Assembly (NCBI GenBank): GCA_021814165.1
Contig: JAKAIX010000001.1
Span: forward strand, 150,787 to 214,786
From: a bacterium
Lineage (GTDB): Bacteria > Patescibacteriota > Minisyncoccia > UBA6257 > GWB1-50-10
Reading direction: 5' to 3'
Length of the DNA stretch: 64,000 nucleotides
A model generated the notes under the pieces. That model was not told the origin of the DNA. It saw nothing but the letters and a program-made list of their open reading frames with translations, and made no database searches. Shown here piece by piece: positions 4,958 through 18,944 of this stretch; within the stretch, counting starts at the first letter, position 1, and every line of letters begins with the position of its first letter. Position numbers and translations under genes: made by a program.

Positions 4958-4987
4958 AAATGCCCTTCAGGGCGTTTTTTATTTTTC
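4958..4987. terminator. Bidirectional intrinsic terminator between rpmA (+) and rplI (-)
   Basis: GCCCTTCAGGGC hairpin flanked by A-run and T-run. Confidence 0.55.
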
Positions 4988-5422
4988 ATCCGGTTCAACT
5001 TGGACGTTTATCTCCGCTTTTATCCCCTCCCCGAAATCGATTGTGATGGCATGAGTACCGAGCGTCTTGATTGATTTTTCAAGCATCGGTTTCGCATGTG
5101 CAACTTTTTCCTTCTTGAGCTCCTCTTCAATATCCTTCTTGGTCACCGATCCGAAAACCGAGTCGTGTTCGCCGGTCTTCACCGCAAAGGAAAGCGTCTT
5201 CCCCTGCACTTTCTTTGCTTCCTCGCGGAGCGATGTAATAAGCGCTTCATGCTCCGCGGCGAGCTTTTTTCTTTGCACCTCAAGTTTCGCGAGTGCATCT
5301 TTCGTAGCGAACATCGCGAGTCCCTTGGGAATCAAAAGATTACGCGCATAACCATCCGAAACATCCTTTACTTCAAATTTCCTTCCTACGCCGCGAATGT
5401 CCTGTAGCAAGATAACCTTCAT
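4979..5422 (-). CDS. rplI: 50S ribosomal protein L9
   Basis: MKVILLQDIRGVGRKFEVKDVSDGYARNLLIPKGLA is the L9 N-domain. Confidence 0.9.
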   Translation of the reverse strand: MKVILLQDIRGVGRKFEVKDVSDGYARNLLIPKGLAMFATKDALAKLEVQRKKLAAEHEALITSLREEAKKVQGKTLSFAVKTGEHDSVFGSVTKKDIEEELKKEKVAHAKPMLEKSIKTLGTHAITIDFGEGIKAEINVQVEPDEK

Positions 5423-5429
5423 CTTGTCT

Positions 5430-6650: not shown

Positions 6651-6756
6651 TTTATTAAAGAGGAAAAAGCCGGAAAAAGCAAAAATATATCGATAATCCT
6701 GAGGAGCGGAACGACGTCGGGTTTACCTTGTTAAGATTATAATCTCGACAGATTGA

Positions 6757-7329
6757 TCAAAGAGGAATTTCGAACACCGTTTCATATTCCGCGCCTTTCC
6801 TAGAAAGATGCGATTCGACAAGCCGAATCGCCTCGGCGCGGTAGGATCGCCCCACGGGAACGCGAAGCGGAGGAAGAGTGCGAATGGGAACCGACTCGAA
6901 TCGCGCGAGCGTAAGATGCCCCTGATACGTTCTTTCTTGTTCCTCCCATGTCACTCCCCTCTTTTTGAGTTCGATCTCCAGACTATTTTTCAAAAATCCT
7001 ATTTTGTGCGAACTCTCCTTATCGGTCGTGAGCCAAATCCCCCGTGCATCTCCACGGGGCGGAAAAGGTCCGTACGTAACCGCATCGAGCGCTATGATAA
7101 CCTCCGTTTTCTCCCGATGCGCGATTGCTTGTTCTATTGAATCTCTTATCGCGTCGATCACCGTTTCTTCCTGATTACCGAGAAACAGTACGGTAAAGTG
7201 CCAGTTCCCTTCGGGGACGATCCTTAAACGCTCGACGCGAGGAAAGCGAATATTCGAAAATACTCGATAAATCTCGCGCTGCAATGAGTCTGGAATCGGA
7301 ATCGCGATAAAAAGGCGTCTTGCGTCCAT
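6757..7329 (-). CDS. thpR: RNA 2',3'-cyclic phosphodiesterase / 2'-5' RNA ligase (2H phosphoesterase)
   Basis: Two H-x-T-x motifs (HFTVLFLG and HLTLARF). Confidence 0.7.
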   Translation of the reverse strand: MDARRLFIAIPIPDSLQREIYRVFSNIRFPRVERLRIVPEGNWHFTVLFLGNQEETVIDAIRDSIEQAIAHREKTEVIIALDAVTYGPFPPRGDARGIWLTTDKESSHKIGFLKNSLEIELKKRGVTWEEQERTYQGHLTLARFESVPIRTLPPLRVPVGRSYRAEAIRLVESHLSRKGAEYETVFEIPL

Positions 7330-7380
7330 ATGATTCTATCTGGTGTCCGATGGTATTCTAACATACAATAGTAATATCGC

Positions 7381-7662
7381 ATGGATGACAATGTGCAAAA
7401 AGACTATCTTGCGTCGCTAAAAGAGCGGGGAAAGGAAAGCCGTGTCTACAAGAAATATCAAATGACGGGTCTCATGCTCGCGGAAATACTCGGTGACAAC
7501 GCACACAAAGCGCTTTATATCAAGCTCGCGAAGGATCACGACGAAGAGAAACTCGTTCGGCTCGCAAAAGACATCGCGGAGAAAAAAAACATACGGAACA
7601 AAGGTGCGTATTTCATGAGAATGCTTTTTGATGGAAGAAAAAATACTTCTCATCACGAATAA
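7381..7662 (+). CDS. Hypothetical protein
   Basis: 93-aa charged ORF; its 3' end overlaps the def start. Confidence 0.3.
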   Translation: MDDNVQKDYLASLKERGKESRVYKKYQMTGLMLAEILGDNAHKALYIKLAKDHDEEKLVRLAKDIAEKKNIRNKGAYFMRMLFDGRKNTSHHE

Positions 7663-8149
7663 GGATGACGAGTCGTTCTTAAGGAAAAAAACGATCCCTT
7701 TTGATTTCACGACGCACCCTTTGAAGGAGGTGCAGGCGCTCGTAAAATCGATGCGCGAGATAATGAAAAAGGCGGACGGCGTCGGACTAAGCGCAAATCA
7801 GGTGGGTCTCCCCTACCGCATGTTCGTGGCACAGGTACCGGACAGCCAGGGCCAGGTAAAATTCTACGCGATCTTCAATCCGGAAATTGTCAAACAATCG
7901 AAAGAAACGGAGATCGTTGAAGAGGGCTGCCTGAGTGTTCCTCGAAAATTCGGATCCGTTGAACGGCGGTACCGCCTCACGCTCACGGGGTTCGATATGC
8001 GCGGAAAGAAACTCAAGATTAACGCATGGGGACTCCTCGCAAGGGTATTCCAGCACGAGACGGATCATCTGGAAGGAAAACTCTTCGTGGATAAAGCGAA
8101 GGTACTACACAGTGTCGAGGATTTCGGAAACGAGAACGAAGAATCGTGA
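7628..8149 (+). CDS. def: Peptide deformylase
   Basis: GVGLSANQVG, EGCLSVP and QHETDHLEG motifs. Confidence 0.9.
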   Translation: MMEEKILLITNKDDESFLRKKTIPFDFTTHPLKEVQALVKSMREIMKKADGVGLSANQVGLPYRMFVAQVPDSQGQVKFYAIFNPEIVKQSKETEIVEEGCLSVPRKFGSVERRYRLTLTGFDMRGKKLKINAWGLLARVFQHETDHLEGKLFVDKAKVLHSVEDFGNENEES

Positions 8150-8159
8150 ACGACGAACC

Positions 8160-9050
8160 ATGGAAAATTTTCTGACTCCCAATTCAAAATTCGTGTTTTT
8201 CGGTACGCCTCGTTTCGCGGAGATTGTCTTGGAAAAACTCATCCAAGGAGAGATGCCACCCGCGCTCGTCGTCACGAACCCCGATCGCCCCGTGGGAAGA
8301 AAACAGATTATTACCCCGCCTCCCGTGAAACAGAGAATCATGAATTATGAATCAGGAATTAGGGAAAAAATCAAAATTCTGCAACCGGAAAAATTGGACC
8401 CTTCTTTATTCCCAATTCCCAATTCCCAATTCGACTTCGCCATTCTTGCTTCCTACGGGAAGATAATTCCGAAGGAAATCATCGAGCTCTTTCCCAAGGG
8501 AATTATCGTTGTACACGGTTCTCTTCTTCCAAAATACCGAGGCGCGACGCCAATCCAGACCGCGCTCTTGAACGGCGACCTGACAACCGGCATTACGCTT
8601 CTCCTTATGGACGAAAAGGTAGATCACGGGGAGATACTCTCGAGCTCCGAACTGCAAATCCTTCCCGATGATACCTATACTTCTCTCATCGAAAAACTTG
8701 CCAACATAAGTGCGGAGCTGCTCTTGAAAACAATTCCGAAATATCTCGCGGGAAAGATTATTCCACGGGAACAAAATCACGCGGAAGCGACGTTCACAAA
8801 AAAATTCAGAACAGAGGACGGATTCTTGCCTTGGAACCATCTTAAGGAGGCGGAAGAACAAGGCGGAGAGAAAGCGGCGACAATCGACCGAATGATACGG
8901 GCGCTGAATCCGGATCCGGGAGTGTATACGCTGAAGGAAGAGAAAAGAATAAAACTCCTCGAAGCGAAACTTGAGAACGGGAAATTACAACTTGTGAAGA
9001 TCCAAGAGGAAGGGAAGAAACCAAAAATTATCGAGGCCCGGCCTCGATAA
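8160..9050 (+). CDS. fmt: Methionyl-tRNA formyltransferase
   Basis: FFGTPRFAE, VVTNPDRPVGRK and HGSLLPKYRGATPIQ motifs. The start overlaps the def stop. The ORF-track N-terminal extension (from 7935) is not used. Confidence 0.9.
   Translation: MENFLTPNSKFVFFGTPRFAEIVLEKLIQGEMPPALVVTNPDRPVGRKQIITPPPVKQRIMNYESGIREKIKILQPEKLDPSLFPIPNSQFDFAILASYGKIIPKEIIELFPKGIIVVHGSLLPKYRGATPIQTALLNGDLTTGITLLLMDEKVDHGEILSSSELQILPDDTYTSLIEKLANISAELLLKTIPKYLAGKIIPREQNHAEATFTKKFRTEDGFLPWNHLKEAEEQGGEKAATIDRMIRALNPDPGVYTLKEEKRIKLLEAKLENGKLQLVKIQEEGKKPKIIEARPR
8408..8432. repeat. Tandem (CAATTCCC)x3 inside fmt coding sequence; related GAATTATGAATCAGGAATTAGGG lies at 8342-8364
   Basis: Read directly; it encodes FPIPNSQF. 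Confidence 0.6.
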
Positions 9051-9089
9051 TGTTATCCACAGAATATATTGAGGCCCGGCCTCGATATA
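9028..9089. terminator. Two copies of the TATCGAGGCCCGGCCTCGATA hairpin family with TTATCCACA (DnaA-box 9-mer) between them
   Basis: 9-bp stem TATCGAGGC with CCGG loop at 9028-9050. TTATCCACA at 9053-9061. A second imperfect hairpin at 9066-9089. Lies between convergent fmt (+) and the cupin gene (-). Confidence 0.6.
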
Positions 9090-9485
9090 TTACTCGGTTG
9101 TTTTACCGTCGAAGTGATCGCCTTCATCCTTCATCGCATCCGCTTTTTCGGGATGTACCGTTTTATCTTTGTGTTCCGGCGGAGAATAGACGGTATAGAG
9201 TTTCATCGGCTCATTCGAGGTATTGACCACATTATGCCGCGTTCCTTCCGGAACCACGATCGCGTAATCCGCTTCGACGTTGTGTTCGACACCGTCCAAG
9301 ATCGCGACGCCGCTCCCCTTTTCGATCCGGATAAACTGATCCAGATCGTGTACTTCCTCCCCTATTTCTTCGCCCGGTTTCAGCGCCATCACGACGAGCT
9401 GGCTGTGCTTCGCGGTATAAAGCACTCTGCGGAAGTTCTCGTTTCCTTCCGTTTCCTTCTCGATGTTTCCTACGTATCCTTTCAT
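9090..9485 (-). CDS. Cupin domain protein
   Basis: 131 aa with conserved cupin His/Glu motifs (GEEIGEEVH...H). Confidence 0.65.
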   Translation of the reverse strand: MKGYVGNIEKETEGNENFRRVLYTAKHSQLVVMALKPGEEIGEEVHDLDQFIRIEKGSGVAILDGVEHNVEADYAIVVPEGTRHNVVNTSNEPMKLYTVYSPPEHKDKTVHPEKADAMKDEGDHFDGKTTE

Positions 9486-9497
9486 ATAAATAGTATA

Positions 9498-10223
9498 TCA
9501 CACTTCCAACACGACCGAGATCGGCAAGTGATCCGAACCTTTCGAATCATGCACTTTAAACGAATGGAATTTCAAGTCTTTTGTGACGAAGAGATAATCA
9601 AGGCGCGTATCGATCGCCTGGGGCTTGCACACGGGGCACCCTTCCGGGTATACGCCCCACGTCGGAGCGAGCTCGGAATCCGTATTTATCATCGTCTTTT
9701 TCAAAACTTTCACCGTAGCACTCTGCGGCGTCGCATTGAGATCCGCACCAAGAAGCGCGCGTTTCTTCGGAATAATCTCGGCCATGCGCTTTGCCTGAAA
9801 CTCTTGAAGATCGGAGGGTTCTTGATGCGTATGGATAAGATGCGAAGAAAATATGTGGAGTATCTCGCCGTTCGCCGGAATGAGCGCCTCTATCAGGAAT
9901 CTCGTTTTTTCTTCCGACAAGGGGTGTACCTTGAAATCCTGAATGGCATTTCTGCTCACGATCGCGTTTCCCATCGCCACGATTCTCGGCTCGAGCTCCT
10001 TGTAATACTTCGCGGTATCAATCTCGTATGTCGAGGTAAAATACGACGATTTATAACCGAGGTGTCGGGCAATTGTCTCCGCCGTATTATTTTTCCCATT
10101 CAAATCCTGTATCGTTTCCTGAAGACATATGATGTCGGGCTTGAACTCCGAAAGGAAATCCAATATCCCGGACAAATGCTGCCCGCCCCATATATTCCAT
10201 GAAACTACTTTTACTTTCGCCAT
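9498..10223 (-). CDS. Endonuclease/exonuclease/phosphatase (EEP) family protein
   Basis: N-terminal WNIWGG and C-terminal SDHLPISVVLEV motifs. Confidence 0.75.
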   Translation of the reverse strand: MAKVKVVSWNIWGGQHLSGILDFLSEFKPDIICLQETIQDLNGKNNTAETIARHLGYKSSYFTSTYEIDTAKYYKELEPRIVAMGNAIVSRNAIQDFKVHPLSEEKTRFLIEALIPANGEILHIFSSHLIHTHQEPSDLQEFQAKRMAEIIPKKRALLGADLNATPQSATVKVLKKTMINTDSELAPTWGVYPEGCPVCKPQAIDTRLDYLFVTKDLKFHSFKVHDSKGSDHLPISVVLEV

Positions 10224-10232
10224 GGTTGATAT

Positions 10233-11039
10233 TTATGTTACCGTCTCCGCACTGTAGCGGGCAATAAGACCGGTGCGAACGGCTTTTCGGTATACCCCCA
10301 CGAAAATCACGCAGGCGAGAACAATATAAACGAGAGAGGTAAAAAATCCCCAGAAAAATGTTGACGAAGAAAATGTTCCTCCGCTAATGATTTCTCGAAT
10401 CCCGGTGAACACGTAGGACGGCGGGAGAAGGTGGCCGATAAACTGCATCCACTCCGGAAGTACTGACAGAGGATAAAATACGCCTATAAAGGGCGACAGG
10501 AACGCGGGAATGGGCCAGACCAGCCACTCGGCCGCGGGCCCTAACCGAAGAACGATACTGATTCCGATGACGCCGAGCGCAATACCGAAAAGAAAAAGGA
10601 TAAGAAGAAATGCCGCAAGCGAAGCACCGAAACCGAAAATGGAAAAGCTGAAAACAAGCGCCGCAAAAAGAAACATCACAATGAGTGCAAGTATGCTCCT
10701 CCCTATTCCCGAAAGTATAAGTCCTGCGACATATTCGGATATCTTGAGCGGGGATGCAAAAATATTCAGGAAATTCCGCGACCAGACATCTTCAAAAAAC
10801 AGCATGGTGATACCCTGCATTACATTGGTTGAAAAATCCCAAAGCAATACTGCCCCCAAGAACATTGTTGTGAAACTGAACTCCGACCCAGCGGTTCCCG
10901 TGAGATATCTGGTGATAAATCCCCAGAGCGTAATATCCACTATAATCCAGATAAAAATCTGGAAGAAACGTGTTGCAGTGCCGCGGATGAGATATAACTG
11001 ACGAACGAATATAGCCCAGATTCTTTTGACACTCATATA
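10233..11039 (-). CDS. ABC-2 type transporter permease
   Basis: Six TM segments; it starts just after the ATPase stop (MSVKRIWAIF...). Confidence 0.75.
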   Translation of the reverse strand, partial: YMSVKRIWAIFVRQLYLIRGTATRFFQIFIWIIVDITLWGFITRYLTGTAGSEFSFTTMFLGAVLLWDFSTNVMQGITMLFFEDVWSRNFLNIFASPLKISEYVAGLILSGIGRSILALIVMFLFAALVFSFSIFGFGASLAAFLLILFLFGIALGVIGISIVLRLGPAAEWLVWPIPAFLSPFIGVFYPLSVLPEWMQFIGHLLPPSYVFTGIREIISGGTFSSSTFFWGFFTSLVYIVLACVIFVGVYRKAVRTGLIARYSAETVT

Positions 11040-11040
11040 A

Positions 11041-11796
11041 TTACATTGATTCCAAAAGCAACGGCTCTCTTGCGACCATAATGAAAAGTTCCTCGAGATT
11101 CTTTTTCTTGTACTCACCGGGGAGCGTCTTAGGATCCCCCTGAAGGAGAATCTTCCCATGCGAAAGGAATAGTACCCGATCGCAGACGTCCGTCACTTCA
11201 TACATATTGTGCGAAGTCCAAAGTACTCCCCCTTCTCCCTGTGCTGCGTATTCTTTTATTTTTTCTCGAATACTCTGCGCCGTCGAAGGGTCGAGCGATG
11301 CGGTCGGCTCATCAAGAAGAAGGAGATGCGGCCTGTTAATCGTCGCCTTCGCCAAACTCACTCTTGTCTGCTCGCCGGAAGAAAGCACGCCGCACCTCGT
11401 ATTCCTGAACTGCTTCAATTCAAACTCTTCGAGAAGCTGCTCAATCCGTTTCTCCGAATCGGGGACGTTATACAAGAGTCCGAAGATACGAAGATTCTGG
11501 GATACCGTAAGATTACCGGGAAGCGGCGAATACACTGCGGCGAAGTTCGTACGCTCGAGCGCCTCGCTCCGTTCAAGAGCGACATCTCTTCCTTCGATTC
11601 GGATCGAACCGTGGGTCGGTTCCAAAACCCCGAGAATCATGTTTATCGTCGTCGTCTTCCCCGCGCCGTTCGGACCCAGGAGCCCTACAATTTCGTTCGA
11701 GCGCACCTCAAAAGAAACGGAGTCGACCGCAGTCGTACTCTTGTAGTTCTTGGTAAGGCCTCGTACCTCAAGTACCGGCTTTTTGCTTACTGTCAT
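11041..11796 (-). CDS. ABC transporter ATP-binding protein
   Basis: Walker A GLLGPNGAGKTT, signature LSSGEQTRVSLAKA and Walker B LLLLDEPTASLD. Confidence 0.9.
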   Translation of the reverse strand: MTVSKKPVLEVRGLTKNYKSTTAVDSVSFEVRSNEIVGLLGPNGAGKTTTINMILGVLEPTHGSIRIEGRDVALERSEALERTNFAAVYSPLPGNLTVSQNLRIFGLLYNVPDSEKRIEQLLEEFELKQFRNTRCGVLSSGEQTRVSLAKATINRPHLLLLDEPTASLDPSTAQSIREKIKEYAAQGEGGVLWTSHNMYEVTDVCDRVLFLSHGKILLQGDPKTLPGEYKKKNLEELFIMVAREPLLLESM

Positions 11797-11941
11797 CGCC
11801 TTTTAGTATACCCGACCGGCGTGAATATGGCATTTTTTCATTATTCTCCCCGGAATTTATAAAAAGCGATTTTGAGTTTGAACAACAGCGTTTGCCACGC
11901 CATTCGGAATAAATACTTGTATTTTTTTAGTTTCCAAAAGT

Positions 11942-13687
11942 TCATAGGAATTCCGCGCGATAGCAGTCGGCGCAATAGATTATCTCCCTTCTCTCCGGCG
12001 AGAAGGTCGTTTCGAATTCGGCAGCACACGGATTGTCGCCGTGAACGTGGCCGGCCTTATTGCACATGCATTTCCGGCGCCAGAGCGTATAAGCATTCCG
12101 CCACCGTAATCGCTCCGCATTGCGGCAGTTCGGACAGAGACGAGGTAAGGCGATGTTCATCTTGCGATAAAACTCCAGTTCCGCCTGACTGATACGAAAG
12201 GCCGTCGTGCATTGTTCGTTGCATATACCCTTATGCGCGCAACCGACCACTTCCCGCGTTATCGAATCATCGACATCACGGACATGATCCGGAAGATTTT
12301 CCGGCTTTAAGGATATCTCATACGACCGCTCGGATGGATCCCGCCATTGCCATCCTTCCCCTACCACTTCCTCTTTTGTCTTCGGATACCAGGGAAATGC
12401 GAACGCTTCGTTATACGCGTATGCGGAGAGCTCCGGCGGAAAAAACTCGCCGAACTTGTACACGCGTCCTTTCTTGTCGATATAAGGTATGTCTTCCATC
12501 TGCTTTTTTATTTTCGGAAGGAGTTCCTCATACTCCTGTTTCGTATACTGCTTGTTCAAAATGCAGTACTGCTTGTTTTTAATAGAAATGCATCCGAAGA
12601 CGTAAGAAGAATTAGCCGCCCAGTCTGAGTAATACGTGTCTCTGCAGTTCGTACCTCCCGCCGAGAAAAAGCACCGTGAAGCGTGTCCCGTAACGGCGCA
12701 CGTTTCGTACATCAGATTCGAGGTGTCACCGCCAATACTCGTATCCCACGCGTCTTTCAGATTTAAACCGCCAAAGTAGACATATCTGCAATGCTCCACG
12801 CCGTCCAACGCCGAAAAACACGTCTTGCAATCTTTAGTATCCCTGATAATGTCTCCCGTCACGTCCTGGCTGCTTACCACGTGTGCAAACCGGTGCGGCG
12901 TCGAGAGATAAAGCGAACGGAATTTATTTTTTGCTTCCTCCAAACGCGCGTAGCTCCCCAGATCCCAATATTTCAAGCGTTCGTAGTATTCTTCTTTTGA
13001 GAACTGCTCATTCCAGAGACGATACTTTTGTTTCCTCAAGTTGATACACCCGAAACAATCCGAGCAGCCCACGCAATCAAATATAAAAGAAGAATTCATG
13101 CAATCATCCGAGAAAAATCCGTTTCTCACTTTGTAAAGACGATTGCAGTGAAGCGACCCGTATACGTGGTCCGAATTATCCGTCACATAGCAGTCGTACG
13201 CGTTTTTCGAGAGAAGAAGCGCATAGCAATTTTCCGCATTCTCGGAAAAATAGCTCCAGAAAACGTAATAGCAATCCTTCACGTTGAGACACGCGTGCGT
13301 GAAGTCGCTTCTCACAAGGTTAGCGCCGGTGAGTGCCGGCCGCGGTACCGCCTCCATGAGTTCGCGATACTGCGCGAAGAAAGGCCTCTTGAAATCGTAC
13401 GCGCGCCCATACGACAACGGATCCCACTTGTCGGAGTTGTAGCATTCACGACAAATCACCGTGAAGGGGCCGCCCGGAGCGTGGATAGTGACGATCTTTT
13501 TGCCGCACAATTTACAAATATCCCGATAGAGCGTTTTTTCTTCCCTCCAGAGCATCCGCCGCATATTCCTGCAACCGGGACACCACGTGGGCGGCGGCAC
13601 GTCGATTTTCTCGTAAAACAAGAAATCTTCAGGCTCAATCGCAAATGAATTCCGGCAATTCTGGCATACACGAGACTCTTTTTGCAT
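11942..13687 (-). CDS. Cysteine-rich 581-aa protein with duplicated N- and C-terminal zinc-ribbon-like modules; function unknown
   Basis: N-terminal CQNCRNSFAIEPEDFLFYEKIDVPPPTWCPGCR and C-terminal CTTAFRISQAELEFYRKMNIALPRLCPNCR are clear internal homologues. The Cys-containing repeat core lies between them. No signal peptide. Confidence 0.6.
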   Translation of the reverse strand: MQKESRVCQNCRNSFAIEPEDFLFYEKIDVPPPTWCPGCRNMRRMLWREEKTLYRDICKLCGKKIVTIHAPGGPFTVICRECYNSDKWDPLSYGRAYDFKRPFFAQYRELMEAVPRPALTGANLVRSDFTHACLNVKDCYYVFWSYFSENAENCYALLLSKNAYDCYVTDNSDHVYGSLHCNRLYKVRNGFFSDDCMNSSFIFDCVGCSDCFGCINLRKQKYRLWNEQFSKEEYYERLKYWDLGSYARLEEAKNKFRSLYLSTPHRFAHVVSSQDVTGDIIRDTKDCKTCFSALDGVEHCRYVYFGGLNLKDAWDTSIGGDTSNLMYETCAVTGHASRCFFSAGGTNCRDTYYSDWAANSSYVFGCISIKNKQYCILNKQYTKQEYEELLPKIKKQMEDIPYIDKKGRVYKFGEFFPPELSAYAYNEAFAFPWYPKTKEEVVGEGWQWRDPSERSYEISLKPENLPDHVRDVDDSITREVVGCAHKGICNEQCTTAFRISQAELEFYRKMNIALPRLCPNCRNAERLRWRNAYTLWRRKCMCNKAGHVHGDNPCAAEFETTFSPERREIIYCADCYRAEFL

Positions 13688-13759
13688 ACGATTATTATAG
13701 CAATCGACACCGACTCACGGGTGCTATAATGAAATAAAGGTCGGAAGCTCTCAATTATT

Positions 13760-14056
13760 ATGGCAAAAGAAGTAATAAAGCGTGGTGGCGTACGTGCGCC
13801 GTTCAAGTCCGAGAAGATAAAACGATCGATCCGGAAAGCGTGCAAGGACGTTCATCTTCCCGCGGCGCGGACAAAGAAGGTGGTTTCCAAGGTTTCCGCA
13901 GCGGTACTTCGGTTCGCCAGAACAAGAAAGACGGCTATTAAGACGTCGGTAATCCGCCAAAAGATACTTGCGGGATTGAAAAAGGAAGAGCCAACAGTAT
14001 GGAAGGCGTGGATGAAATATGACAAACGCCGTCGCGCGCGGAGAAAGAAGAAATAG
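13760..14056 (+). CDS. Stand-alone ATP-cone domain protein (NrdR-like, without zinc ribbon)
   Basis: VIKRGGVRAPFKSEKIKRSIRKA fits the ATP-cone N-terminal pattern. Basic C-terminal tail. Confidence 0.55.
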   Translation: MAKEVIKRGGVRAPFKSEKIKRSIRKACKDVHLPAARTKKVVSKVSAAVLRFARTRKTAIKTSVIRQKILAGLKKEEPTVWKAWMKYDKRRRARRKKK

Positions 14057-14077
14057 ATGTTATCAGAAATTGACGAA

Positions 14078-14108
14078 TGAAAGCGGCACGGAATTCCGTG
14101 CCGCTTTG
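14078..14108. terminator. Bidirectional terminator hairpin of the GAAGCGG(T/C)AC family
   Basis: Palindrome GAAAGCGGCACGGAATTCCGTGCCGCTTTG. Confidence 0.55.
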
Positions 14109-14111
14109 TTA

Positions 14112-14861
14112 TTACGGAATCAAAATACGATCCCCTCTTTTCAATTTCATGCGGATTCTCGCTTCGACGGTCTGACTGCAATAAGTCATGACATCAAAAA
14201 TGTAGTCATACATTTTTTCTTCGGAAAACTTTTTCTTGCCATTCCGCATCAGATGAGCATCTCTAATGAGCCGACGTTCTTTTGGAGTGAGTCTTAATTT
14301 TCTTGATGTTTTTACTATATCCCCGAAACCGATTGGAAAATCTCCATTCAGATATTCCAAACTCAATGTCGCAAACAGGCATGCTTTATAACTCATCTCA
14401 TACGCTTCCTTTGTATTGCCCGCTCTCAAGAAGAAAAGGCCCGCCAAGACACGCATAGTGGAAAAACATGCTTCCCGATAGGCGTCGAGAAGCGTAAGCG
14501 GCGGTGGCACGAGACGTTCCATTATTTCCTTGCCCCAGATTGTTTGCGAGGTGAGGGCAAGGTGACGTATAAAAACGCTTTTTGTAAAAGGAGAATTTAC
14601 CGTTCCCTTCTTGAATCCTTCAAGATCATACGCGTAAACGCGAAGAGTTAATGATTTCCTTTTGGAATATTTTTGCGCGATAGCTTTGAGTGTTCTATTT
14701 GAGACATCACTCTTTTTCTTTCGCAAGACGCCGATCTCCAGATCGGATACTCCGGGCACATAGTCATTTGCAGCGTAACTTCCGTAGAGAAAGATAGATA
14801 CAGGCTTCGTTTTTCGTACTATCTCCATTACAACTCTACTCACTATATCTTCAGTTCCCAT
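14112..14861 (-). CDS. Nucleotidyltransferase-domain protein (KNTase-like: minimal NTase plus C-terminal HEPN-like helical domain)
   Basis: LYGSYAANDYVPGVSDLEIGV is the GS-x(n)-DhE motif. The C-terminal RRLIRDAH resembles Rx4-6H. Confidence 0.65.
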   Translation of the reverse strand: MGTEDIVSRVVMEIVRKTKPVSIFLYGSYAANDYVPGVSDLEIGVLRKKKSDVSNRTLKAIAQKYSKRKSLTLRVYAYDLEGFKKGTVNSPFTKSVFIRHLALTSQTIWGKEIMERLVPPPLTLLDAYREACFSTMRVLAGLFFLRAGNTKEAYEMSYKACLFATLSLEYLNGDFPIGFGDIVKTSRKLRLTPKERRLIRDAHLMRNGKKKFSEEKMYDYIFDVMTYCSQTVEARIRMKLKRGDRILIP

Positions 14862-14947
14862 TCAATAATTATAACACTTCAATCGAATTGACGGCGCGAC
14901 GGAGAAGTGTTACGTTCTTTGTAATTTACAACAAAATAAGGATGCCT

Positions 14948-16273
14948 ATGAAGAACATTCTGACCTTGCGAAGGGTGGAACGGGTCATAGAAGACACCGC
15001 GAAGAAATTCGTTATTGATGGCCTTGAGTTTGAAGATCTCGTCCAAATAGGGAGAATTGCGGTTTGGAATTTGCTGAAAAAGTACGACATCAATGAAACG
15101 AACGTAGCTGAACACACGGGGATTATCAGAAACAGCGTAAAATATGCGCTCCTGAACGAACGCACAAAATCCAAAGCGAAGAAAAGAATCGAACTCACAA
15201 AAGCGATTTCACTGGACGAGGGAATCGATGAAGAGGACGGCGACGAGAGAACATTACAGAATTTCATCGCATCGGACGAAGAAAATGGGATTGATATCCT
15301 TGAGAAACATGAAAACGATGTAGAACGTCTCAAATTTCTCGTTCGCAACTCGTTTGCTGAAAAAACCGTGAAAAGCAAACGTGCGGTGATATTCTTCCTC
15401 GTAAAAATGTTGGGATTGAGCGAACCCGAGATTCCTAAGAGGATAAAATACGAAACATTCCTCAAACTAAGAATTTCAAGATGGCTCTGGGTATTTTTCA
15501 ACAACTCCCCTTTCAGAGCCCTTAATCTCGCCTATCCTGGAAAATTCCTCCCATATGAAATGAGCCGAATCCCCAAAAAACAATGGGACGGACTGCGAGG
15601 GAAAAAGAGAGCAATAAAGGCCCTGAAACTTGCTTTGGAAAAAACCGGATACGCGCCGGAACACTTTCCAAAACTCCTGAACTATCATTTCTTCGAGGAG
15701 TTCAGGCTCGTTACCCCTCTCAAAAACATCTTCGAGTACGACAGATTCTCTTACCTGAATGCGACATTCCCTTCCCGGTATCATGCGTGGGATCTATCCT
15801 TCACGCAAAGAGGTTTTTTTGATTCGCTGGATCACCTGAAAGATGCGACAAAATGGCTTGTCAGAAAGAAGCTCGGTTATGATATTGACGGCCTTAGCGT
15901 CCACGAGATATGGGAGAAAAAGATCGCACTCAAGATTGGGAAGGAAGATTTCTGCCAAAACGGATTGCGTGGAGTTATGGCGGTCTACGGATCACCGGAA
16001 CCCGTTTTGAGACTTACCTATCCGGGAAAATTCCTGCCGTGGAGCTTTCAACGAAGAGACAAGTGGTACGGAAGAAGCGGAAAAGCGCTTGCCGCACTTG
16101 CAACTCGCTGGGTAGTTGAAAGATATGCAAAGATCTCTCCCTTGTCGCCCAAGATAACGTTCTACTTCTTTGTACAAAACGGTCTGCACGGTATGATTAC
16201 GGCAAGGAGTCTTGGTTTCAATTCTTCTCCAAAAAAAGCGATGCGGAATGCCTATCCGGGACTATTTCACTAA
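14948..16273 (+). CDS. ECF/sigma-70-family-like protein with C-terminal triple YPGKFLP(W/Y) repeat domain
   Basis: EDLVQIGRIAVWNLLKKYD...GIIRNSVKYALLNE resembles sigma region 2. KRAVIFFLVKMLGLSEPEIPKRIKYETFLKLR is region-4-like. Three repeats follow: ALNLAYPGKFLPYEMSRIP, VLRLTYPGKFLPWSFQRRD and AMRNAYPGLFH. AAGGA RBS precedes the ATG. Confidence 0.55.
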   Translation: MKNILTLRRVERVIEDTAKKFVIDGLEFEDLVQIGRIAVWNLLKKYDINETNVAEHTGIIRNSVKYALLNERTKSKAKKRIELTKAISLDEGIDEEDGDERTLQNFIASDEENGIDILEKHENDVERLKFLVRNSFAEKTVKSKRAVIFFLVKMLGLSEPEIPKRIKYETFLKLRISRWLWVFFNNSPFRALNLAYPGKFLPYEMSRIPKKQWDGLRGKKRAIKALKLALEKTGYAPEHFPKLLNYHFFEEFRLVTPLKNIFEYDRFSYLNATFPSRYHAWDLSFTQRGFFDSLDHLKDATKWLVRKKLGYDIDGLSVHEIWEKKIALKIGKEDFCQNGLRGVMAVYGSPEPVLRLTYPGKFLPWSFQRRDKWYGRSGKALAALATRWVVERYAKISPLSPKITFYFFVQNGLHGMITARSLGFNSSPKKAMRNAYPGLFH

Positions 16274-16312
16274 CCCTCTTTTGTAGCTCAAAAGAGGGTT
16301 TTATTTTTTTGA
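16266..16312 (+). terminator. Rho-independent terminator after the sigma-like gene
   Basis: CCCTCTTTTGTAGCTCAAAAGAGGG hairpin followed by TTTTATTTTTTT. Confidence 0.7.
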
Positions 16313-16489
16313 GCTTACTTTGAACTTCTTCAGATCGAAATTGAAGTGGCACCCGTCCGTACAGGGACACTTCACGAGTTCGTGATGGTGATGCGCACAG
16401 TCGAGCGCCTGACACACGCCCGGCGTGTTCGAGACCCCCTTGCATCCGCCAAGGCATACGTAATGCTCTTTATATATGTTTTGTGCCAT
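16301..16489 (-). CDS. Small Cys/His-rich protein (putative metal-binding)
   Basis: 62 aa with 9 Cys and 5 His, including DCAHHHHELVKCPCTDGCH. Confidence 0.4.
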   Translation of the reverse strand: MAQNIYKEHYVCLGGCKGVSNTPGVCQALDCAHHHHELVKCPCTDGCHFNFDLKKFKVSSKK

Positions 16490-16548
16490 ATATTATTACT
16501 ACAAGACACCCGATCGTTTTCTTTCAATAGAAAAGAAAGACAAGCAGG

Positions 16549-17118
16549 TTAAACACCCGGAAGCAGTTCGAAAAGTTCTCCAACCGGAATTCCGTGTCCG
16601 TTAGAAATCCCAAAATATTTTGAGACACCCACGGACGGCTGAGCCGTCATCGGATCCCCTTTTTTGCGATCTGCGTAATTTACGACAATTGTTCCGTCCC
16701 GGATCTCGGTAGTCTGCGGCGCGATCCTGTCACCCAACAAAATTCCATTTGTTCCCTTGTATCCCGCGTCCGTCTTGAGCGCAGCTACCACGTAATAAAA
16801 CGTGCCGCTTCCCCCGCCGGTTTGCGTAAGAAGAAATGCGATATCCGGTTTGCCATCACCGTTCAAATCCCCTTCCGCGGCATTTCCGAAGTAGCGAGTT
16901 ACGAGTTTCGATGCGGATCCCGGCGCAATCCCAACCTCGGAATATCCGTCGACAAGCGTGATTGTTTTCCCATCGATCGTGTATGTCGCATTTTTGTACG
17001 GGGGAGAAACAATATTCTTTTGCTTCTCAACCGGAACAGTCGCATCTTCCTTGGGCCAAAGAATTATTCCGAGGATTGCGACAACGACGATAACGAGAGG
17101 AATAATTATTTTATACTT
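16549..17118 (-). CDS. Membrane-anchored exported protein with FG-GAP-like Ca-binding motif
   Basis: N-terminal TM (MKYKIIIPLVIVVVAILGI) and DLNGDGKPDIAF motif. Confidence 0.45.
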   Translation of the reverse strand, partial: KYKIIIPLVIVVVAILGIILWPKEDATVPVEKQKNIVSPPYKNATYTIDGKTITLVDGYSEVGIAPGSASKLVTRYFGNAAEGDLNGDGKPDIAFLLTQTGGGSGTFYYVVAALKTDAGYKGTNGILLGDRIAPQTTEIRDGTIVVNYADRKKGDPMTAQPSVGVSKYFGISNGHGIPVGELFELLPGV

Positions 17119-17166
17119 CATAAGATCATTGTAGCAGTTGATGCCTATATATACTGCTCTAATACC

Positions 17167-17190
17167 GTCACTATGACGCGTCATAGTGAC
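17167..17190. repeat. 24-bp perfect palindrome GTCACTATGACGCGTCATAGTGAC (second copy of its core at 18838-18855)
   Basis: Read directly. Both copies lie 3' of the divergent gene pair 17199-18179 (-) and 18250-18781 (+). Confidence 0.6.
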
Positions 17191-17198
17191 CGGCCCCT

Positions 17199-18179
17199 TT
17201 AATAAAAAATGGTCCTGCTTCTGTGGTATGGTTTCAGATTATCTTGATTCTGGCTCATGAGCCAGATGGTGTTGTCTATGTCCGCGGAGGACATGCCGTG
17301 CAGGTAATCTTTCAAGAGTTCTACGGCCCAGATCGTAGATGCCCGTATTTCTATCTCTTCCCTGCTGTCGTGGGGAATCTGGACATAGTTGTCTATCTTC
17401 CCGGCAAGATCCGGTTTGTATTCGAGAACGCCGTTCGCGCGAAGAAGCTGGGGCAGCTTGTAGTCCGCGAAGGCAGTCAGCTGATTCAATTTCTTGAGCT
17501 TCCTGCCCTTGGGAAGAATACAGTTTATGTCCTGGGAAAGAATCTGGGCTCGTTTGTAGAAGAACACGTTTTTCCCTTCCGGATGGGAAACGTCCCGGAA
17601 AGAAGGGAAATTCTCTATCACCGCCCTCGTCACTTGTATCGCATCATCGTTCGTTCCATTGAAAAGATTTACGAACTTTCCCTGAAACCTGCTCACCAAT
17701 ATTTTTCCCGCCTCGCGCAGGTTTTGAATTCTCTCGTTCAATAAAGGAATCCTGGTATTCTTTATGCCCCTGAAGAACTTCGCGCCGTCATCGAGGGAAA
17801 GGTTGGAAAGGTAATCCGCGTTGAGAATAGGAACTCCTTCTTTTATTCCCCTCTCGAAACTTGTCTTGAGACCAAACCAGCCTCCCGAACTAACTTCTCC
17901 GTTCAGTCCTTCGACCTGCCACTTCGGTTCACCTTGATCCGGCCAGAAGCAGAAATTCACCACGTTTTCCAGAAATACCAGCTGAAGATCATCCTCGAAG
18001 TTCCCCACGAAAGAATACCCCATCGTTTTCGTATTTAGCTCGCCGCGGTGCTTTTTTATCAGTTCCGCCGCGGCCTCGAGGTTTTTGTCGTTCAGGAAAA
18101 CAAAACGCGCCCCCTCGACAACTTCTCTTGTTGATCTGAGGATATCCAGCGGATCCCCTGTTTTGGTTTTCAGTTCCAT
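17199..18179 (-). CDS. Queuosine-salvage Qng1/DUF2419-like protein (tentative)
   Basis: Size (~326 aa) and the ADYKLPQLLRANGVLEY segment are reminiscent of the C9orf64/Qng1 family. Assigned from memory, not searched. Confidence 0.4.
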   Translation of the reverse strand: MELKTKTGDPLDILRSTREVVEGARFVFLNDKNLEAAAELIKKHRGELNTKTMGYSFVGNFEDDLQLVFLENVVNFCFWPDQGEPKWQVEGLNGEVSSGGWFGLKTSFERGIKEGVPILNADYLSNLSLDDGAKFFRGIKNTRIPLLNERIQNLREAGKILVSRFQGKFVNLFNGTNDDAIQVTRAVIENFPSFRDVSHPEGKNVFFYKRAQILSQDINCILPKGRKLKKLNQLTAFADYKLPQLLRANGVLEYKPDLAGKIDNYVQIPHDSREEIEIRASTIWAVELLKDYLHGMSSADIDNTIWLMSQNQDNLKPYHRSRTIFY

Positions 18180-18249
18180 TGGTGGGATGTTTTACGACGA
18201 AAGTATCATTCGTCAGAGTAAGAAAATTGTTATATAATCATGTTACCAT

Positions 18250-18781
18250 GAATAACTTCAAAAAGGGTGGATTCCGGAAAGGAGGCGGCAAGTTCGGTGG
18301 ACGCCCAAAATTCGGAGGTAATAAATTCGGAGGCGGGAGGGACAGAGGCGACAGATCGGGAGGACATATGCAGCTTTTCCCTGCGGTATGCTCCGAATGC
18401 AAAAAGAGCTGTGAGCTTCCATTTCGCCCCACCGGTGATAAGCCGGTCTACTGCCGCGACTGTTTCAACAAACAAAGGCAGGTACCGGGACGCAATTCGA
18501 ACGGTGCCGATGGTCCGCGTATGGACTTCCGAAGAGATGCTTTTCCCCAACACGAACAGCAACCCGAATATGCAAGACCTCAAAACAACGGGGAGATGAA
18601 CGCGCTTAAGTCAAAACTCGATTCGCTCGAATCGAAAGTGAATCGCATTCTCGATCTCGTGAGCAAGAAGCCGCAAGCTCAAGCTCCTGCCGCTCCGATT
18701 ACAGCGACTGCTCCTCAGGCGGCAAAAGCGAAAAAGGCAAAATCCCCCGCTCGCAAAGCTACGAAGAAGAGAAAGAAGTAA
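18250..18781 (+). CDS. Gly-rich (KFGG/RGG repeats) protein with CxxC...CxxC zinc ribbon and basic coiled-coil tail
   Basis: MNNFKKGGFRKGGGKFGGRPKFGG... and CSECKKSCELPFRPTGDKPVYCRDCF. The C-terminus is AKAKKAKSPARKATKKRKK. Confidence 0.5.
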
Positions 18782-18944
18782 TATTCTTGCCTATAGTGAC
18801 GTAAAACCGCTTGCTATTTTGGTGAGCGGTTTAGTAGTACTATGACGCGTCATAGTGGCTAACAAAATGCGTTTGTTCGCTTATTCTTTTGTGCTATCAT
18901 GCGACTAGAAGATAAACAATTTGGCAACTAAGACGGAGTAAACA

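What the first reader, a model, noticed from the sequence alone, without database searches (positions are those of the whole stretch)
10233..13687. Cysteine-rich 581-aa protein with duplicated zinc-ribbon modules in an operon with an ABC exporter
ORF 11942-13687 (minus strand) has about 45 cysteines. Its N-terminal module (CQNCRNSFAIEPEDFLFYEKIDVPPPTWCPGCRNMRRMLWR...CKLCGKK...CRECY) and C-terminal module (CNEQCTTAFRISQAELEFYRKMNIALPRLCPNCRNAERLRWR...CMCNK...CADCY) are clearly homologous to each other. They flank a core of irregular Cys/Gly/Asp-containing repeats that looks like a beta-helix. There is no signal peptide. The gene is co-directional with, and directly upstream of, an ABC ATPase plus ABC-2 permease, then an EEP nuclease/phosphatase and a cupin. 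A similar CxxC-x(n)-PVYCRDCF ribbon occurs in the Gly-rich protein at 18250-18781. Function is unknown: it could be a metal/redox protein, or a scaffold whose product is handled by the exporter.
Basis: seen in the sequence. Interest (0 to 1): 0.5.

Follow-up and report, generated by a model that had tools for sequence, protein, structure and literature searches.

The report
Zinc-finger β-solenoid protein; ABC link incidental
The gene is a real, very well conserved member of a large uncharacterised protein family of ultra-small (Patescibacteria/CPR) bacteria; its neighbouring ABC transporter is a local coincidence, while across relatives the family's recurrent partner is an 'orphan' VirD4-like secretion-coupling ATPase whose role is unknown.

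Summary

The ABC linkage is not conserved. The window-type ABC pair follows the gene only in the window and two 85-87% identical relatives (3 of 95 loci), and a 145-bp gap with a promoter-like site separates the genes.

The family is large (2,542 clusters at 50% identity), nearly confined to Patescibacteria, uniform in architecture, and often in same-strand tandem arrays of 2-8+ copies. Its one strongly recurrent neighbour is a soluble VirD4/TrwB-like ATPase carrying the same zf_Tbcl_2 finger. It lies within 1 kb in 21 of 95 loci, and 5 of 5 ATPase loci chosen independently carry family arrays. The cassette is 74-aa TM protein, DUF8128-like, T4CP-zf, family genes, CutA1, short T4CP.

Best reading: a cytoplasmic multi-zinc solenoid that is a client (cargo or adaptor) of this ATPase module. 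The function is untested.

The parts
11942..13687 (-). 581-aa Cys-rich protein; the window's single copy of a Patescibacteria-wide family
   Evidence: ORF; 36 Cys. 3,763 homologs, all 'hypothetical', 48-88% identical over the full length. The core alone finds 2,542 representative clusters. No Pfam, NCBIfam, PHROG or PADLOC family passes threshold.
13403..13687 (-). N-terminal double zinc-finger module (aa 1-95): site N1 = C8/C11/C36/C39 (zf_Tbcl-like); site N2 = C58/C61/C79/C82 with exact CxxC-x17-CxxC spacing (zf_Tbcl_2-like); basic, pI 8.7
   Evidence: Homologous to the C-module. 31 and 36 of 81 family members hit PF13451 and PF23477. Cys are lost as units across 387 relatives (phi 0.82-0.98). 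pLDDT 86-95. pI.
13004..13336 (-). Beta-solenoid A (aa 118-228), roughly 15-residue coils with a Cys/Ser ladder, ending in the conserved cap CVGCSDCFGC-x-NLR-x-Q-x-Y
12548..12883 (-). Repeat region B (aa 269-380), a diverged duplicate of solenoid A ending in the conserved cap FGC-x-S-x-K-N-K-Q-Y-C-I-L-N-K-Q-Y
   Evidence: Internal similarity aa 166-238 versus 330-390, E = 9e-10. Only moderate AF2 confidence, pLDDT 62-73.
12242..12547 (-). Conserved acidic alpha/beta region (aa 381-482) containing the near-invariant G-E-F-F-P-x-E-L-S-x-Y-x-Y-N-E motif
   Evidence: Lowest column entropy outside the fingers. pLDDT 89-97 in the full model but poorly predicted in isolation, so it probably packs on the solenoid.
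11945..12241 (-). C-terminal double zinc-finger module (aa 483-581): site C1 = C489/C493/C518/C521; site C2 = C540/C554/C572/C575 (universal in the family); fixed 6-residue tail Y-x-x-E-[VFI]-x after the last CxxC
11805..11833 (-). Promoter-like site in the 145-bp gap between the Cys-rich gene and the ABC ATPase
   Evidence: Consensus scan, 9 of 12 matches; gap sequence. This is a consensus match only, not proof of function.
9090..11796 (-). Neighbouring, tightly packed four-gene unit judged NOT to belong to the family's system: DrrA-like ABC ATPase (11041-11796), ABC-2 permease (probable start at M42, 10233-11036), EEP hydrolase (9498-10223), cupin (9090-9485); terminator at 9027-9051
   Evidence: Pfam and NCBIfam. 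Spacing of 4-12 nt. Terminator. Synteny with the Cys-rich gene only in L001 and L002.
18179..18781 (+). Gly/Arg-rich, Lys-tailed basic protein (pI 10.4; probable ATG at 18248) with a bona fide zf_Tbcl_2 / CxxC-x17-CxxC finger. This is the finger type found in the Cys-rich protein and on the C-terminal tail of the T4CP-like ATPases elsewhere
   Evidence: PF23477 E = 1.1e-15; TIGR04272 E = 1.5e-15. tblastn match of the L051 T4CP-zf finger to 18347-18478. pI.

Best explanation
The gene encodes a cytoplasmic multi-zinc beta-solenoid protein. Two homologous double zinc-finger modules, four Cys4 sites in all, cap an internally duplicated solenoid core.

It is the most conserved, stand-alone orthologue of a Patescibacteria-wide family. 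Members of that family work with a membrane-anchored VirD4/TrwB-like ('orphan type IV coupling protein') ATPase module, not with the adjacent ABC transporter.

Proposed mechanism (inferred):
- The universally conserved C-terminal zf_Tbcl_2-type finger and its fixed-length tail, together with the conserved solenoid caps, are the handle by which the hexameric ATPase recognises the protein. The ATPase carries the same finger on its own tail and is tethered to the membrane by a DUF8128-like protein and a 74-aa two-TM protein.
- The variable solenoid faces give each paralogue its own binding specificity.
- The ATPase then translocates or remodels these proteins, or whatever they hold. In short, they are its clients, most likely its cargo or cargo adaptors.

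What is shown: domain anatomy, zinc-site units, family size and architecture, tandem arrays, non-conservation of the ABC linkage, and a strong two-way gene-neighbourhood link to the ATPase cassette.

What is inferred: physical interaction, the direction of action (cargo versus adaptor), and any export.
For: Anatomy:
- Module duplication.
- Finger identity: 36 of 81 members hit PF23477 and 31 of 81 hit PF13451.
- Exact CxxC-x17-CxxC spacing. That domain binds Zn experimentally in M. mazei small proteins (PMC12704099).
- Four Cys sets are lost as units, phi 0.79-0.98.

Family:
- 2,542 clusters at 50% identity, nearly all 550-600 aa with the core at about 97-480.
- 43 of 95 loci carry 2-6 same-strand copies; 8 copies lie in 21 kb in an Abawacabacteria genome.

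Partner:
- The only neighbour cluster found in more than 10 loci is a TrwB_AAD_bind/TraG-D_C/DUF87 ATPase, often with a C-terminal PF23477 finger.
- It lies within 1 kb, always co-directional, in 21 of 95 loci. It is present in 23 of 87 lineage groups and next to members of at least 9 subfamilies, including the window's own clade (L003, L022, L036).
- A DUF8128-T4CP fusion protein exists in L019.
- Background frequency: about 2 VirD4-like genes per Patescibacteria genome, nearly all far from virB4; the authors raise possible exaptation (PMC12102498).
- The family's C-terminus is fixed in length and sequence in 152 of 156 copies.
Against: - In this window there is no T4CP-like ATPase within 64 kb, so for this copy the link is by homology only.
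- About three quarters of family loci lack the ATPase nearby, and the Bdellovibrionota copies stand alone, so the proteins may act independently of it.
- Gene neighbourhood does not prove interaction. The five reciprocal loci share about 70% identical ATPases and common flanks (SecDF, sigma factor), so they partly reflect inherited synteny.
- The window's orthologous group is conserved at housekeeping levels (60-88% identity across orders), which is atypical for secreted effectors.
- Stably folded zinc proteins are awkward substrates for an unfolding translocase.
- No structural or sequence similarity to any known T4SS substrate or adaptor was found.
Confidence: 0.45

Rival explanations
1. One reading: the protein forms an operon with the ABC-2 exporter and is a scaffold or maker of something that the exporter handles.
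For: - The gene is co-directional with the ABC operon and no terminator-like site is predicted in the gap.
- The arrangement is kept in L001.
- Unrelated MsbA-type exporters lie directly beside or inside family arrays in 5 loci (L028, L030, L037, L038, L046).
Against: - The window-type ABC pair is adjacent in only 3 of 95 loci, all at least 85% identical relatives, and L002 has lost most of the ATPase gene.
- The MsbA-type cases reduce to two lineages.
- The total frequency, about 8%, is near the chance expectation for ABC genes.
- A 145-bp gap with a promoter-like site contrasts with gaps of 4-12 nt inside the ABC/EEP/cupin unit.
- Four other inspected contexts have no ABC neighbour.
Confidence: 0.05
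2. A nucleic-acid-binding factor: the basic zinc-finger modules clamp DNA or RNA, and the VirD4/FtsK-like ATPases act as nucleic-acid translocases, for example in DNA uptake or processing in nucleotide-auxotrophic CPR cells.
For: - The finger modules are basic (pI 8.7) while the core is acidic.
- The same zf_Tbcl_2 finger occurs in the window's RGG-like, Lys-tailed protein of pI 10.4.
- NCBI names the partner 'type IV secretion system DNA-binding domain-containing protein' and JGI once names a family member 'Zn ribbon nucleic-acid-binding protein'. These are annotations, not tests.
Against: - No match to any known nucleic-acid-binding domain.
- Three of the four zinc sites are dispensable in many paralogues.
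- No nuclease, helicase or recombinase is consistently in the cassette.
- The faint LIM-like similarity points to protein-protein interaction modules instead.
Confidence: 0.2
3. A metal-homeostasis or redox protein (zinc buffer or chaperone, or an Fe-S protein).
For: - 36 Cys, four Cys4 sites and a CxxCxxCxxC motif.
- CutA1 ('divalent ion tolerance') lies immediately downstream in 6 loci and inside the cassette in 2 more.
- DnaJ, itself a zinc-finger chaperone, flanks the cassette in 6 loci.
Against: - The Cys4 sites have the spacing of structural treble-clef fingers, and three of them are lost wholesale in many members that keep the fold.
- C205-C214 are replaced independently by Leu, Val or Ser, so they are buried core residues rather than ligands.
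- No Fer4, radical-SAM or thioredoxin match.
- Cys density of 6% is far below that of metallothioneins.
- No metal transporter or regulator is a conserved neighbour.
Confidence: 0.1
4. A diversifying conflict or defence module: an intracellular sensor array with a HerA/FtsK-class ATPase.
For: - Tandem arrays of up to 8 or more paralogues with variable solenoid faces on a conserved frame.
- A ParE/Phd toxin-antitoxin pair sits inside one array.
- HerA/FtsK-type ATPases occur in several defence systems (general knowledge).
- The family is also present in predatory Bdellovibrionota.
Against: - No PADLOC or PHROG match. No copies on IMG/VR viral contigs or in phage genomes.
- The cassette sits in stable housekeeping synteny (SecDF, sigma factor, DnaK/DnaJ) rather than in variable islands.
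- Orthologues are conserved at housekeeping levels.
- No effector nuclease or toxin domain is present.
Confidence: 0.1

Closest known systems
Treble-clef zinc fingers zf_Tbcl (PF13451) and zf_Tbcl_2 (PF23477 / TIGR04272 'CxxC-x17-CxxC domain')
   Same: Each terminal module is one finger of each type. N2 (C58-x2-C61-x17-C79-x2-C82) and C2 (C554-x17-C572-x2-C575) have the defining spacing. 31 and 36 of 81 family members hit the two models. The domain binds zinc in M. mazei small proteins (PMC12704099).
   Different: The window protein scores below the curated cut-offs (14.1 bits versus 27 for PF23477). The known members are small stand-alone proteins or C-terminal tails. Here two finger pairs bracket a 390-aa solenoid core that has no family assignment.
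VirD4/TrwB type IV coupling proteins and their substrates. By analogy, type VII EssC/EccC (FtsK-like ATPases) with tandem arrays of substrates encoded downstream
   Same: An FtsK/VirD4-class ATPase is encoded directly beside arrays of paralogous soluble proteins that share a conserved C-terminus. The ATPase is membrane-tethered: there is a DUF8128-T4CP fusion in L019 and a 2-TM partner.
   Different: The ATPases lack the canonical N-terminal TM domain and are not near virB4 (PMC12102498). No relaxase, channel or WXG/LXG-type substrate is present. Translocation is untested. The window's own copy has no such ATPase nearby.
Beta-solenoid proteins (curli CsgA 8c50, spruce-budworm antifreeze 1m8n, left-handed beta-helix acyltransferases, bactofilin)
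LIM-domain adaptor proteins (CRP1/CRP2)
   Same: Two consecutive Cys4-type fingers form one compact module. There is a faint profile similarity, E = 0.06, to avian CRP. LIM domains are protein-protein docking modules, which matches the proposed role of the termini.
   Different: The match is not significant. The ligand spacing and the helix-containing first finger (F-x-I-x3-D-x2-F-Y-x-K) differ. LIM domains are eukaryotic.
DrrAB-type ABC-2 exporters (the neighbouring genes)
   Same: The neighbours are a typical DrrA-like ATPase (TIGR01188 E = 2e-58, below its cut-off) and an ABC-2 permease.
   Different: They are not a conserved partner of the Cys-rich family (3 of 95 loci).

Membership tests
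zf_Tbcl_2 / CxxC-x17-CxxC domain (PF23477, TIGR04272) | CxxC-x17-CxxC cysteine spacing | tested here: met
   C58-x2-C61-x17-C79-x2-C82 in the N-module, and C554-x17-C572-x2-C575 in the C-module (positions).
zf_Tbcl_2 / CxxC-x17-CxxC domain (PF23477, TIGR04272) | HMM score above the curated gathering threshold | tested here: not met
   The window protein scores 14.1 bits against a cut-off of 27 (E = 0.04) for PF23477, and has no NCBIfam hit. 36 of 81 homologues reach E <= 0.01, best 7.9e-6. It is a divergent relative, not a scored member.
zf_Tbcl_2 / CxxC-x17-CxxC domain (PF23477, TIGR04272) | The four Cys act as one zinc site | tested here: inconclusive
   Co-loss of C61/C79/C82 (phi 0.96-0.98) and of C554/C572/C575 (phi 0.79) across 387 relatives supports single units.
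zf_Tbcl (PF13451) | HMM match over the first finger (CxxC ... F-Y-x-K ... CPxCR) | tested here: inconclusive
   No hit for the window protein at E <= 0.1. 31 of 81 homologues hit at E <= 0.01, best 5e-7, and the precomputed annotation lists PF13451 on P0020, P0063 and P0077.
Substrate or adaptor of a VirD4-type coupling ATPase | Conserved genomic linkage to the ATPase | tested here: inconclusive
   Met at family level: 21 of 95 loci within 1 kb, 23 of 87 lineage groups, and 5 of 5 reciprocal loci. Not met for the window copy, which has no such ATPase in 64 kb.
Substrate or adaptor of a VirD4-type coupling ATPase | Physical recognition by, or translocation through, the ATPase | not testable with these tools
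   This needs a multimer prediction or experiments. The only indirect hint is the fixed, conserved C-terminal tail in 152 of 156 copies.
   3 of 95 loci, all at least 85% identical relatives. Other ABC neighbours are non-orthologous and come from two lineages.
Left-handed beta-helix (hexapeptide) acyltransferases / gamma-carbonic anhydrases | Hexapeptide-repeat HMM match and a significant structural match | tested here: not met
Ferredoxin-type [4Fe-4S] proteins | CxxCxxCxxxC(P) motif, Fer4 HMM match and conserved ligand set | tested here: not met
   The motif is CxxCxxCxxC. There is no Fer4 hit. C205, C208 and C214 are replaced independently by L, V or S in relatives.
Known anti-phage defence or phage protein families | Match to PADLOC or PHROG models, or presence on viral contigs | tested here: not met
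   No PADLOC hit. PHROG E >= 0.3. None on IMG/VR contigs or in 50,697 phage records.

The most novel reading that the evidence does not exclude
The cassette '74-aa two-TM protein, DUF8128-like membrane protein, VirD4-like ATPase with zinc finger, arrays of zinc-finger beta-solenoid proteins, CutA1, second VirD4-like ATPase' is a previously unrecognised protein-handling or delivery machine. It would be widespread in Patescibacteria and independent of the VirB4 type IV apparatus. The solenoid paralogues, including the window's highly conserved copy, would be its cargo, possibly delivered to host cells by these epibionts. This would explain what the thousands of 'orphan' T4CP genes in Patescibacteria are for.
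Probability: 0.17. Interest if true: 0.85.

Novelty: new variant of a known kind. Interest (0 to 1): 0.6.

Why it matters
Patescibacteria have tiny genomes, yet many devote several kilobases to tandem copies of this unannotated 580-aa protein. One Abawacabacteria locus holds at least 8 copies, about 13 kb. The window's orthologue is conserved as strongly as housekeeping proteins.

A published census found about 5,700 VirD4-like coupling ATPases in these bacteria, almost none next to a type IV secretion system, and left their role open (PMC12102498). The neighbourhood link shown here names a concrete candidate client family for those ATPases. That turns an open question into testable experiments: interaction, zinc stoichiometry, localisation, and essentiality in cultivable epibionts.

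It also corrects a tempting but wrong inference, the ABC-exporter operon, that would otherwise spread into annotation.

Tried and rejected
- Pfam, NCBIfam, PHROGs and PADLOC on the protein: nothing above threshold.
- PDB sequence search with the single protein and with the family profile: only faint LIM/CRP similarity, E = 0.06.
- Foldseek against the PDB: nothing below E = 0.06.
- AFDB50 fold library: unavailable.
- Model coordinates are not exposed, so zinc-site geometry could not be measured. Cys co-loss statistics were used instead.
- IMG/VR viral contigs and INPHARED phage genomes: no relatives.
- Literature searches for the family, DUF8128, and the PF13451/PF23477 identifiers found no description of this family or cassette.
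- My first greedy ORF-based adjacency count missed overlapping genes, including the window's own ABC ATPase. It was replaced by distance-based tblastn counts.
- An Fe-S reading of CxxCxxCxxC was considered and rejected on substitution patterns.
- A weak tblastn hit of a T4CP to window 43803-44018 falls on a 346-aa ORF (43005-44045) with an ordinary P-loop GTPase-like motif, not a T4CP.


Full report
**1. Observation**

The ORF at 11942-13687 (minus strand) exists and encodes 581 aa. It has 36 cysteines (6.2%), not about 45.

The N-terminal stretch (aa 8-86) and the C-terminal stretch (aa 490-578) align at 28% identity with a pairwise E of 6e-16, so the duplication of the terminal modules is real.

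The protein has no hydrophobic segment. The maximum 19-residue Kyte-Doolittle mean is 1.14 and the N-terminus is hydrophilic. It is therefore cytoplasmic.

Downstream on the same strand lie:
- a DrrA-like ABC ATPase (11041-11796);
- an ABC-2 permease (ORF to 11159, probable start at M42, position 11036);
- an EEP-family hydrolase (9498-10223);
- a cupin (9090-9485).

Those four genes are packed with gaps of 4-12 nt and end at a strong terminator-like hairpin (9051-9027). The Cys-rich gene is separated from them by 145 bp that contain a sigma70-like promoter match.

The Gly-rich protein at 18179-18781 has a clear zf_Tbcl_2 / CxxC-x17-CxxC finger (E about 1e-15).

The window as a whole is ordinary chromosome of a Patescibacteria (CPR) bacterium, with ORFs that look like UvrA/B/C, LepA and YchF and three tRNAs.

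**2. Anatomy**

No Pfam, NCBIfam, PHROG or PADLOC model passes threshold for the protein.

Scanning 81 homologues individually shows that the terminal modules are divergent pairs of two 'probable treble-clef' fingers. PF13451 (zf_Tbcl) is hit by 31 members and PF23477 (zf_Tbcl_2) by 36.

The second finger of each module has the defining CxxC-x17-CxxC spacing. That domain has been shown by ICP-MS to bind zinc in small proteins of Methanosarcina mazei (PMC12704099).

Model coordinates are not exposed, so I inferred the metal sites from evolution. In an alignment of 387 diverse relatives, four sets of cysteines are kept or lost as units:

| Site | Cysteines | Co-loss phi | Kept in |
|---|---|---|---|
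| N1 | C8/C11/C36/C39 | 0.82-0.95 | about 66-92% |
| N2 | C58/C61/C79/C82 | 0.96-0.98 | about 30% |
| C1 | C489/C493/C518/C521 | 0.92-0.96 | about 60% |
| C2 | C540/C554/C572/C575 | 0.79 | 97-99% |

The window protein has all four sites.

The central C205-x2-C208-x2-C211-x2-C214 cysteines behave differently. They are replaced independently by Leu, Val or Ser. That pattern fits buried solenoid-core residues and argues against an Fe-S or redox cluster.

AlphaFold2 with an 81-sequence alignment gives pLDDT 86 and pTM 0.86. The predicted layout is:
- zinc module (aa 1-95);
- a helix;
- a beta-solenoid of short strands (aa 118-228);
- helices;
- a second repeat region (aa 269-380, pLDDT only 62-73);
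- a conserved acidic alpha/beta region (aa 381-482);
- the C-terminal zinc module.

The second repeat region is a diverged copy of the first (aa 166-238 versus 330-390, E = 9e-10).

**3. The family**

The protein has 3,763 homologues at 90% clustering. All are 'hypothetical', and the best 120 are 48-88% identical over the full length. Named sources include Paceibacterota, Liptonbacteria, Wolfebacteria, Nomurabacteria and Woesebacteria. More distant copies occur in Peribacteria, Gracilibacteria and Abawacabacteria.

The solenoid core alone (aa 96-482) finds 2,542 representative clusters at 50% identity, 861 of them at E <= 1e-30. Almost all are 550-600 aa with the core at about residues 97-480, so the architecture is uniform.

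A few copies lie outside the CPR, in Bdellovibrionota. One is on a 1.87-Mb contig, which excludes a binning artefact.

No copy was found on IMG/VR viral contigs or in phage genomes.

The family is strongly prone to tandem amplification:
- 43 of 95 loci carry 2-6 copies, always on one strand.
- One Abawacabacteria locus has 8 confirmed copies in 21 kb, and locus tags indicate more elsewhere in that genome.

Across 156 diverse copies, the zinc modules, the two solenoid 'caps' (aa 201-240, 361-440) and the C-terminus are conserved, while the solenoid coils are the most variable part.

152 of 156 copies end exactly six residues after the last CxxC, with the tail Y-x-x-E-[VFI]-x.

**4. Is the ABC linkage conserved? 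No.**

I gathered 9 loci from species-representative genomes, 80 from metagenomes and several by exact-protein look-up. With the window this gives 95 loci falling into 87 lineage groups at an 80%-identity link.

- The window-type ABC ATPase plus ABC-2 permease (with EEP and cupin) follows the gene only in the window, L001 (87% identical protein) and L002 (85%). L002 retains only the last 36 codons of the ATPase.
- Unrelated, fused MsbA-type exporters lie directly beside or inside family arrays in 5 loci, with a sixth three genes away. These reduce to two lineages.
- About 8 of 95 loci with some ABC gene adjacent is near what chance predicts for so common a gene class.

**5. What is conserved instead**

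Clustering all neighbouring ORFs gave one cluster present in 30 of 95 loci. The next largest appears in 10.

The large cluster consists of soluble VirD4/TrwB-like ATPases (PF10412, PF12696, DUF87). Many have a C-terminal zf_Tbcl_2 finger and a low-complexity tail. The cluster also includes a DUF8128-like membrane protein.

Strength of the association:
- A T4CP-like ATPase lies within 1 kb, always co-directional, in 21 of 95 loci.
- It is present in 23 of 87 lineage groups.
- It lies directly next to members of at least 9 different 50%-identity subfamilies. These include the window's own clade, where the orthologue in L003, L022 and L036 (63-66% identical) is immediately upstream of a T4CP-zf gene.

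As a reciprocal test, I took five T4CP-zf homologues chosen only for long contigs. All five are followed by 2-4 family genes. The recurring cassette, often downstream of SecDF and a sigma70-r4/HARE-HTH gene, is:
- a 74-aa two-TM protein;
- a DUF8128-like protein (about 464 aa);
- T4CP-zf;
- the family genes;
- CutA1 in two of the five loci;
- a short T4CP in the same two loci.

In other loci the cassette sits between dnaK and dnaJ.

A 788-aa protein in L019 fuses the DUF8128-like domain to the ATPase. This suggests that DUF8128 is the detached membrane anchor of these otherwise TM-less coupling-protein homologues.

For background, a published census found 5,713 VirD4-like genes in 2,918 Patescibacteria genomes, only 148 of them near virB4, and the authors raised possible exaptation (PMC12102498). 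At roughly 2 such genes per genome of about a thousand genes (my own estimate of genome size), adjacency in about a quarter of family loci is an enrichment of well over tenfold.

**6. Mechanism**

Shown:
- a cytoplasmic protein with four unit-like Cys4 sites and a duplicated solenoid;
- a large family with uniform architecture and tandem amplification;
- variable coils on a conserved frame;
- an invariant C-terminal finger and tail;
- a strong two-way neighbourhood link to a membrane-tethered VirD4-like ATPase module that bears the same finger.

Inferred: the family members are clients of that ATPase, either cargo or cargo adaptors, docked through the conserved C-terminal finger and tail and the solenoid caps. 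Paralogue-specific solenoid faces would provide binding specificity.

I put about 0.45 on a functional partnership of this kind, and less (about 0.17) on actual export or delivery.

Caveats:
- The window's copy has no such ATPase within 64 kb.
- Three quarters of loci lack it nearby.
- The Bdellovibrionota copies stand alone.
- The window's orthologous group is conserved like a housekeeping protein.
- Neighbourhood is not interaction.

Rivals are set out in the Rival explanations section with their tests: nucleic-acid binding with a DNA-translocase-like ATPase, metal homeostasis (the CutA1 link), a diversifying conflict module, and the ABC model.

**7. Comparison with known systems, and novelty**

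The fingers belong to known but functionally uncharacterised zinc-finger families. The window protein is a divergent relative scoring below their thresholds.

The core belongs to the beta-solenoid fold class, with no detectable homology to hexapeptide, pentapeptide, curlin or antifreeze families.

The nearest system-level analogies are coupling ATPases with their substrates: VirD4 with T4SS effectors, and EssC/EccC with downstream substrate arrays. Here the ATPases lack their own TM domain, are not associated with virB4, and no channel is evident.

I found no publication describing the family or the cassette.

I rate it a new variant of a known kind. The gene itself is a typical member of a large family already present in databases as 'hypothetical protein', but neither the family nor its ATPase link has been described in the literature I could search.

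**8. Verdict**

The sequence observation is largely correct, apart from the Cys count. The ABC-operon interpretation is not supported.

What is really there is a member of a major unannotated Patescibacteria protein family whose conserved genomic partner is the orphan VirD4-like ATPase module.

Interest 0.6: the window locus itself is unremarkable, but the family-level link makes an open question directly testable.

Noticed in passing
L019:235-2601 (+): A 788-aa ORF fuses a DUF8128-like membrane domain (aa 7-359) to a VirD4/TrwB-like ATPase (aa 352-782). This is a Rosetta-stone hint that DUF8128 is the detached membrane anchor of the TM-less T4CP homologues of Patescibacteria.
   Followed up: partly
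L098:5349-5573, L099:5374-5598, L100:5358-5582, L101:5361-5582, L102:5358-5582: A conserved 73-74-aa protein with two predicted TM helices (MD-x-F ... FSFIYYWHL-x-K ...) lies immediately upstream of the DUF8128-like gene in all five T4CP-zf cassettes. It has no Pfam family.
   Followed up: partly
L042:5346-5651; also L006, L073, L083, L085, L086, L101:13310-13633, L102:12648-12953: CutA1 (PF03091, E = 4.5e-26) lies immediately downstream of family genes in 6 loci and inside the cassette in 2 more. The reason is unknown.
   Followed up: partly
L049, L087, L094, L037, L079: In several loci the T4CP-zf / Cys-rich / short-T4CP cassette sits between dnaK (PF00012) and dnaJ (PF00226, PF00684, PF01556), as if inserted into the chaperone operon.
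   Followed up: partly
L096 (Abawacabacteria, GCA_016207805.1), 1707-19792: There are 8 tblastn-confirmed family copies in 21 kb, plus probably 2 more divergent or truncated ones. A ParE/Phd toxin-antitoxin pair and a DUF4328 gene are embedded in the array. Locus tags show at least 4 further copies on another contig of the same genome.
   Followed up: partly
L095:10001-11566 (Bdellovibrionota, 1.87-Mb contig); L097:10001-11656 (Bdellovibrionales): Single family copies occur in predatory Bdellovibrionota, about 40% identical to Gracilibacteria/Abawacabacteria copies. There is no T4CP nearby. In L097 the gene follows TadE and RcpC pilus genes. This could reflect lateral transfer or a shared predatory or epibiotic function.
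   Followed up: partly
P0268 (731 aa): A divergent family member has an N-terminal GNAT acetyltransferase domain (PF00583, E = 3e-8) fused upstream, and has lost half of the first-finger cysteines. This is a single case and could be a gene-call fusion.
   Followed up: partly
L002:3105-3330: In this 85%-identical relative of the window locus, the ABC ATPase gene is almost entirely missing (only the last 36 codons match), while the permease, EEP and cupin remain. This could be a real deletion or an assembly artefact, since contig coverage is 0.85x.
   Followed up: no
window 16301-16489 (-): A 62-aa ORF is very rich in Cys and His (…CLGGCKG…PGVCQALDCAHHHHELVKCPCTDGCH…). It has no Pfam match and may be a small metal-binding protein.
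   Followed up: partly
window 14888-16273 (+): A 461-aa protein has only a Sigma70_r2 match (E = 1e-6) at its N-terminus. Its C-terminal half contains three repeats ending in the motif [AT]YPG-[KL]-F (LNLAYPGKFLPYE, LRLTYPGKFLPWS, MRNAYPGLFH). It looks like an atypical sigma-like protein.
   Followed up: partly
window 13760-14056 (+): A stand-alone 98-aa ATP-cone protein (PF03477, E = 7e-11) with a Lys/Arg-rich tail is transcribed divergently from the Cys-rich gene, 72 bp away. The pairing is conserved in L001.
   Followed up: no
L003:5694-6002 and L022 (cluster c17, about 100 aa): A small unannotated ORF of about 100 aa is wedged between family copies just upstream of the window-type orthologue in two loci. 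It has no Pfam match.
   Followed up: no
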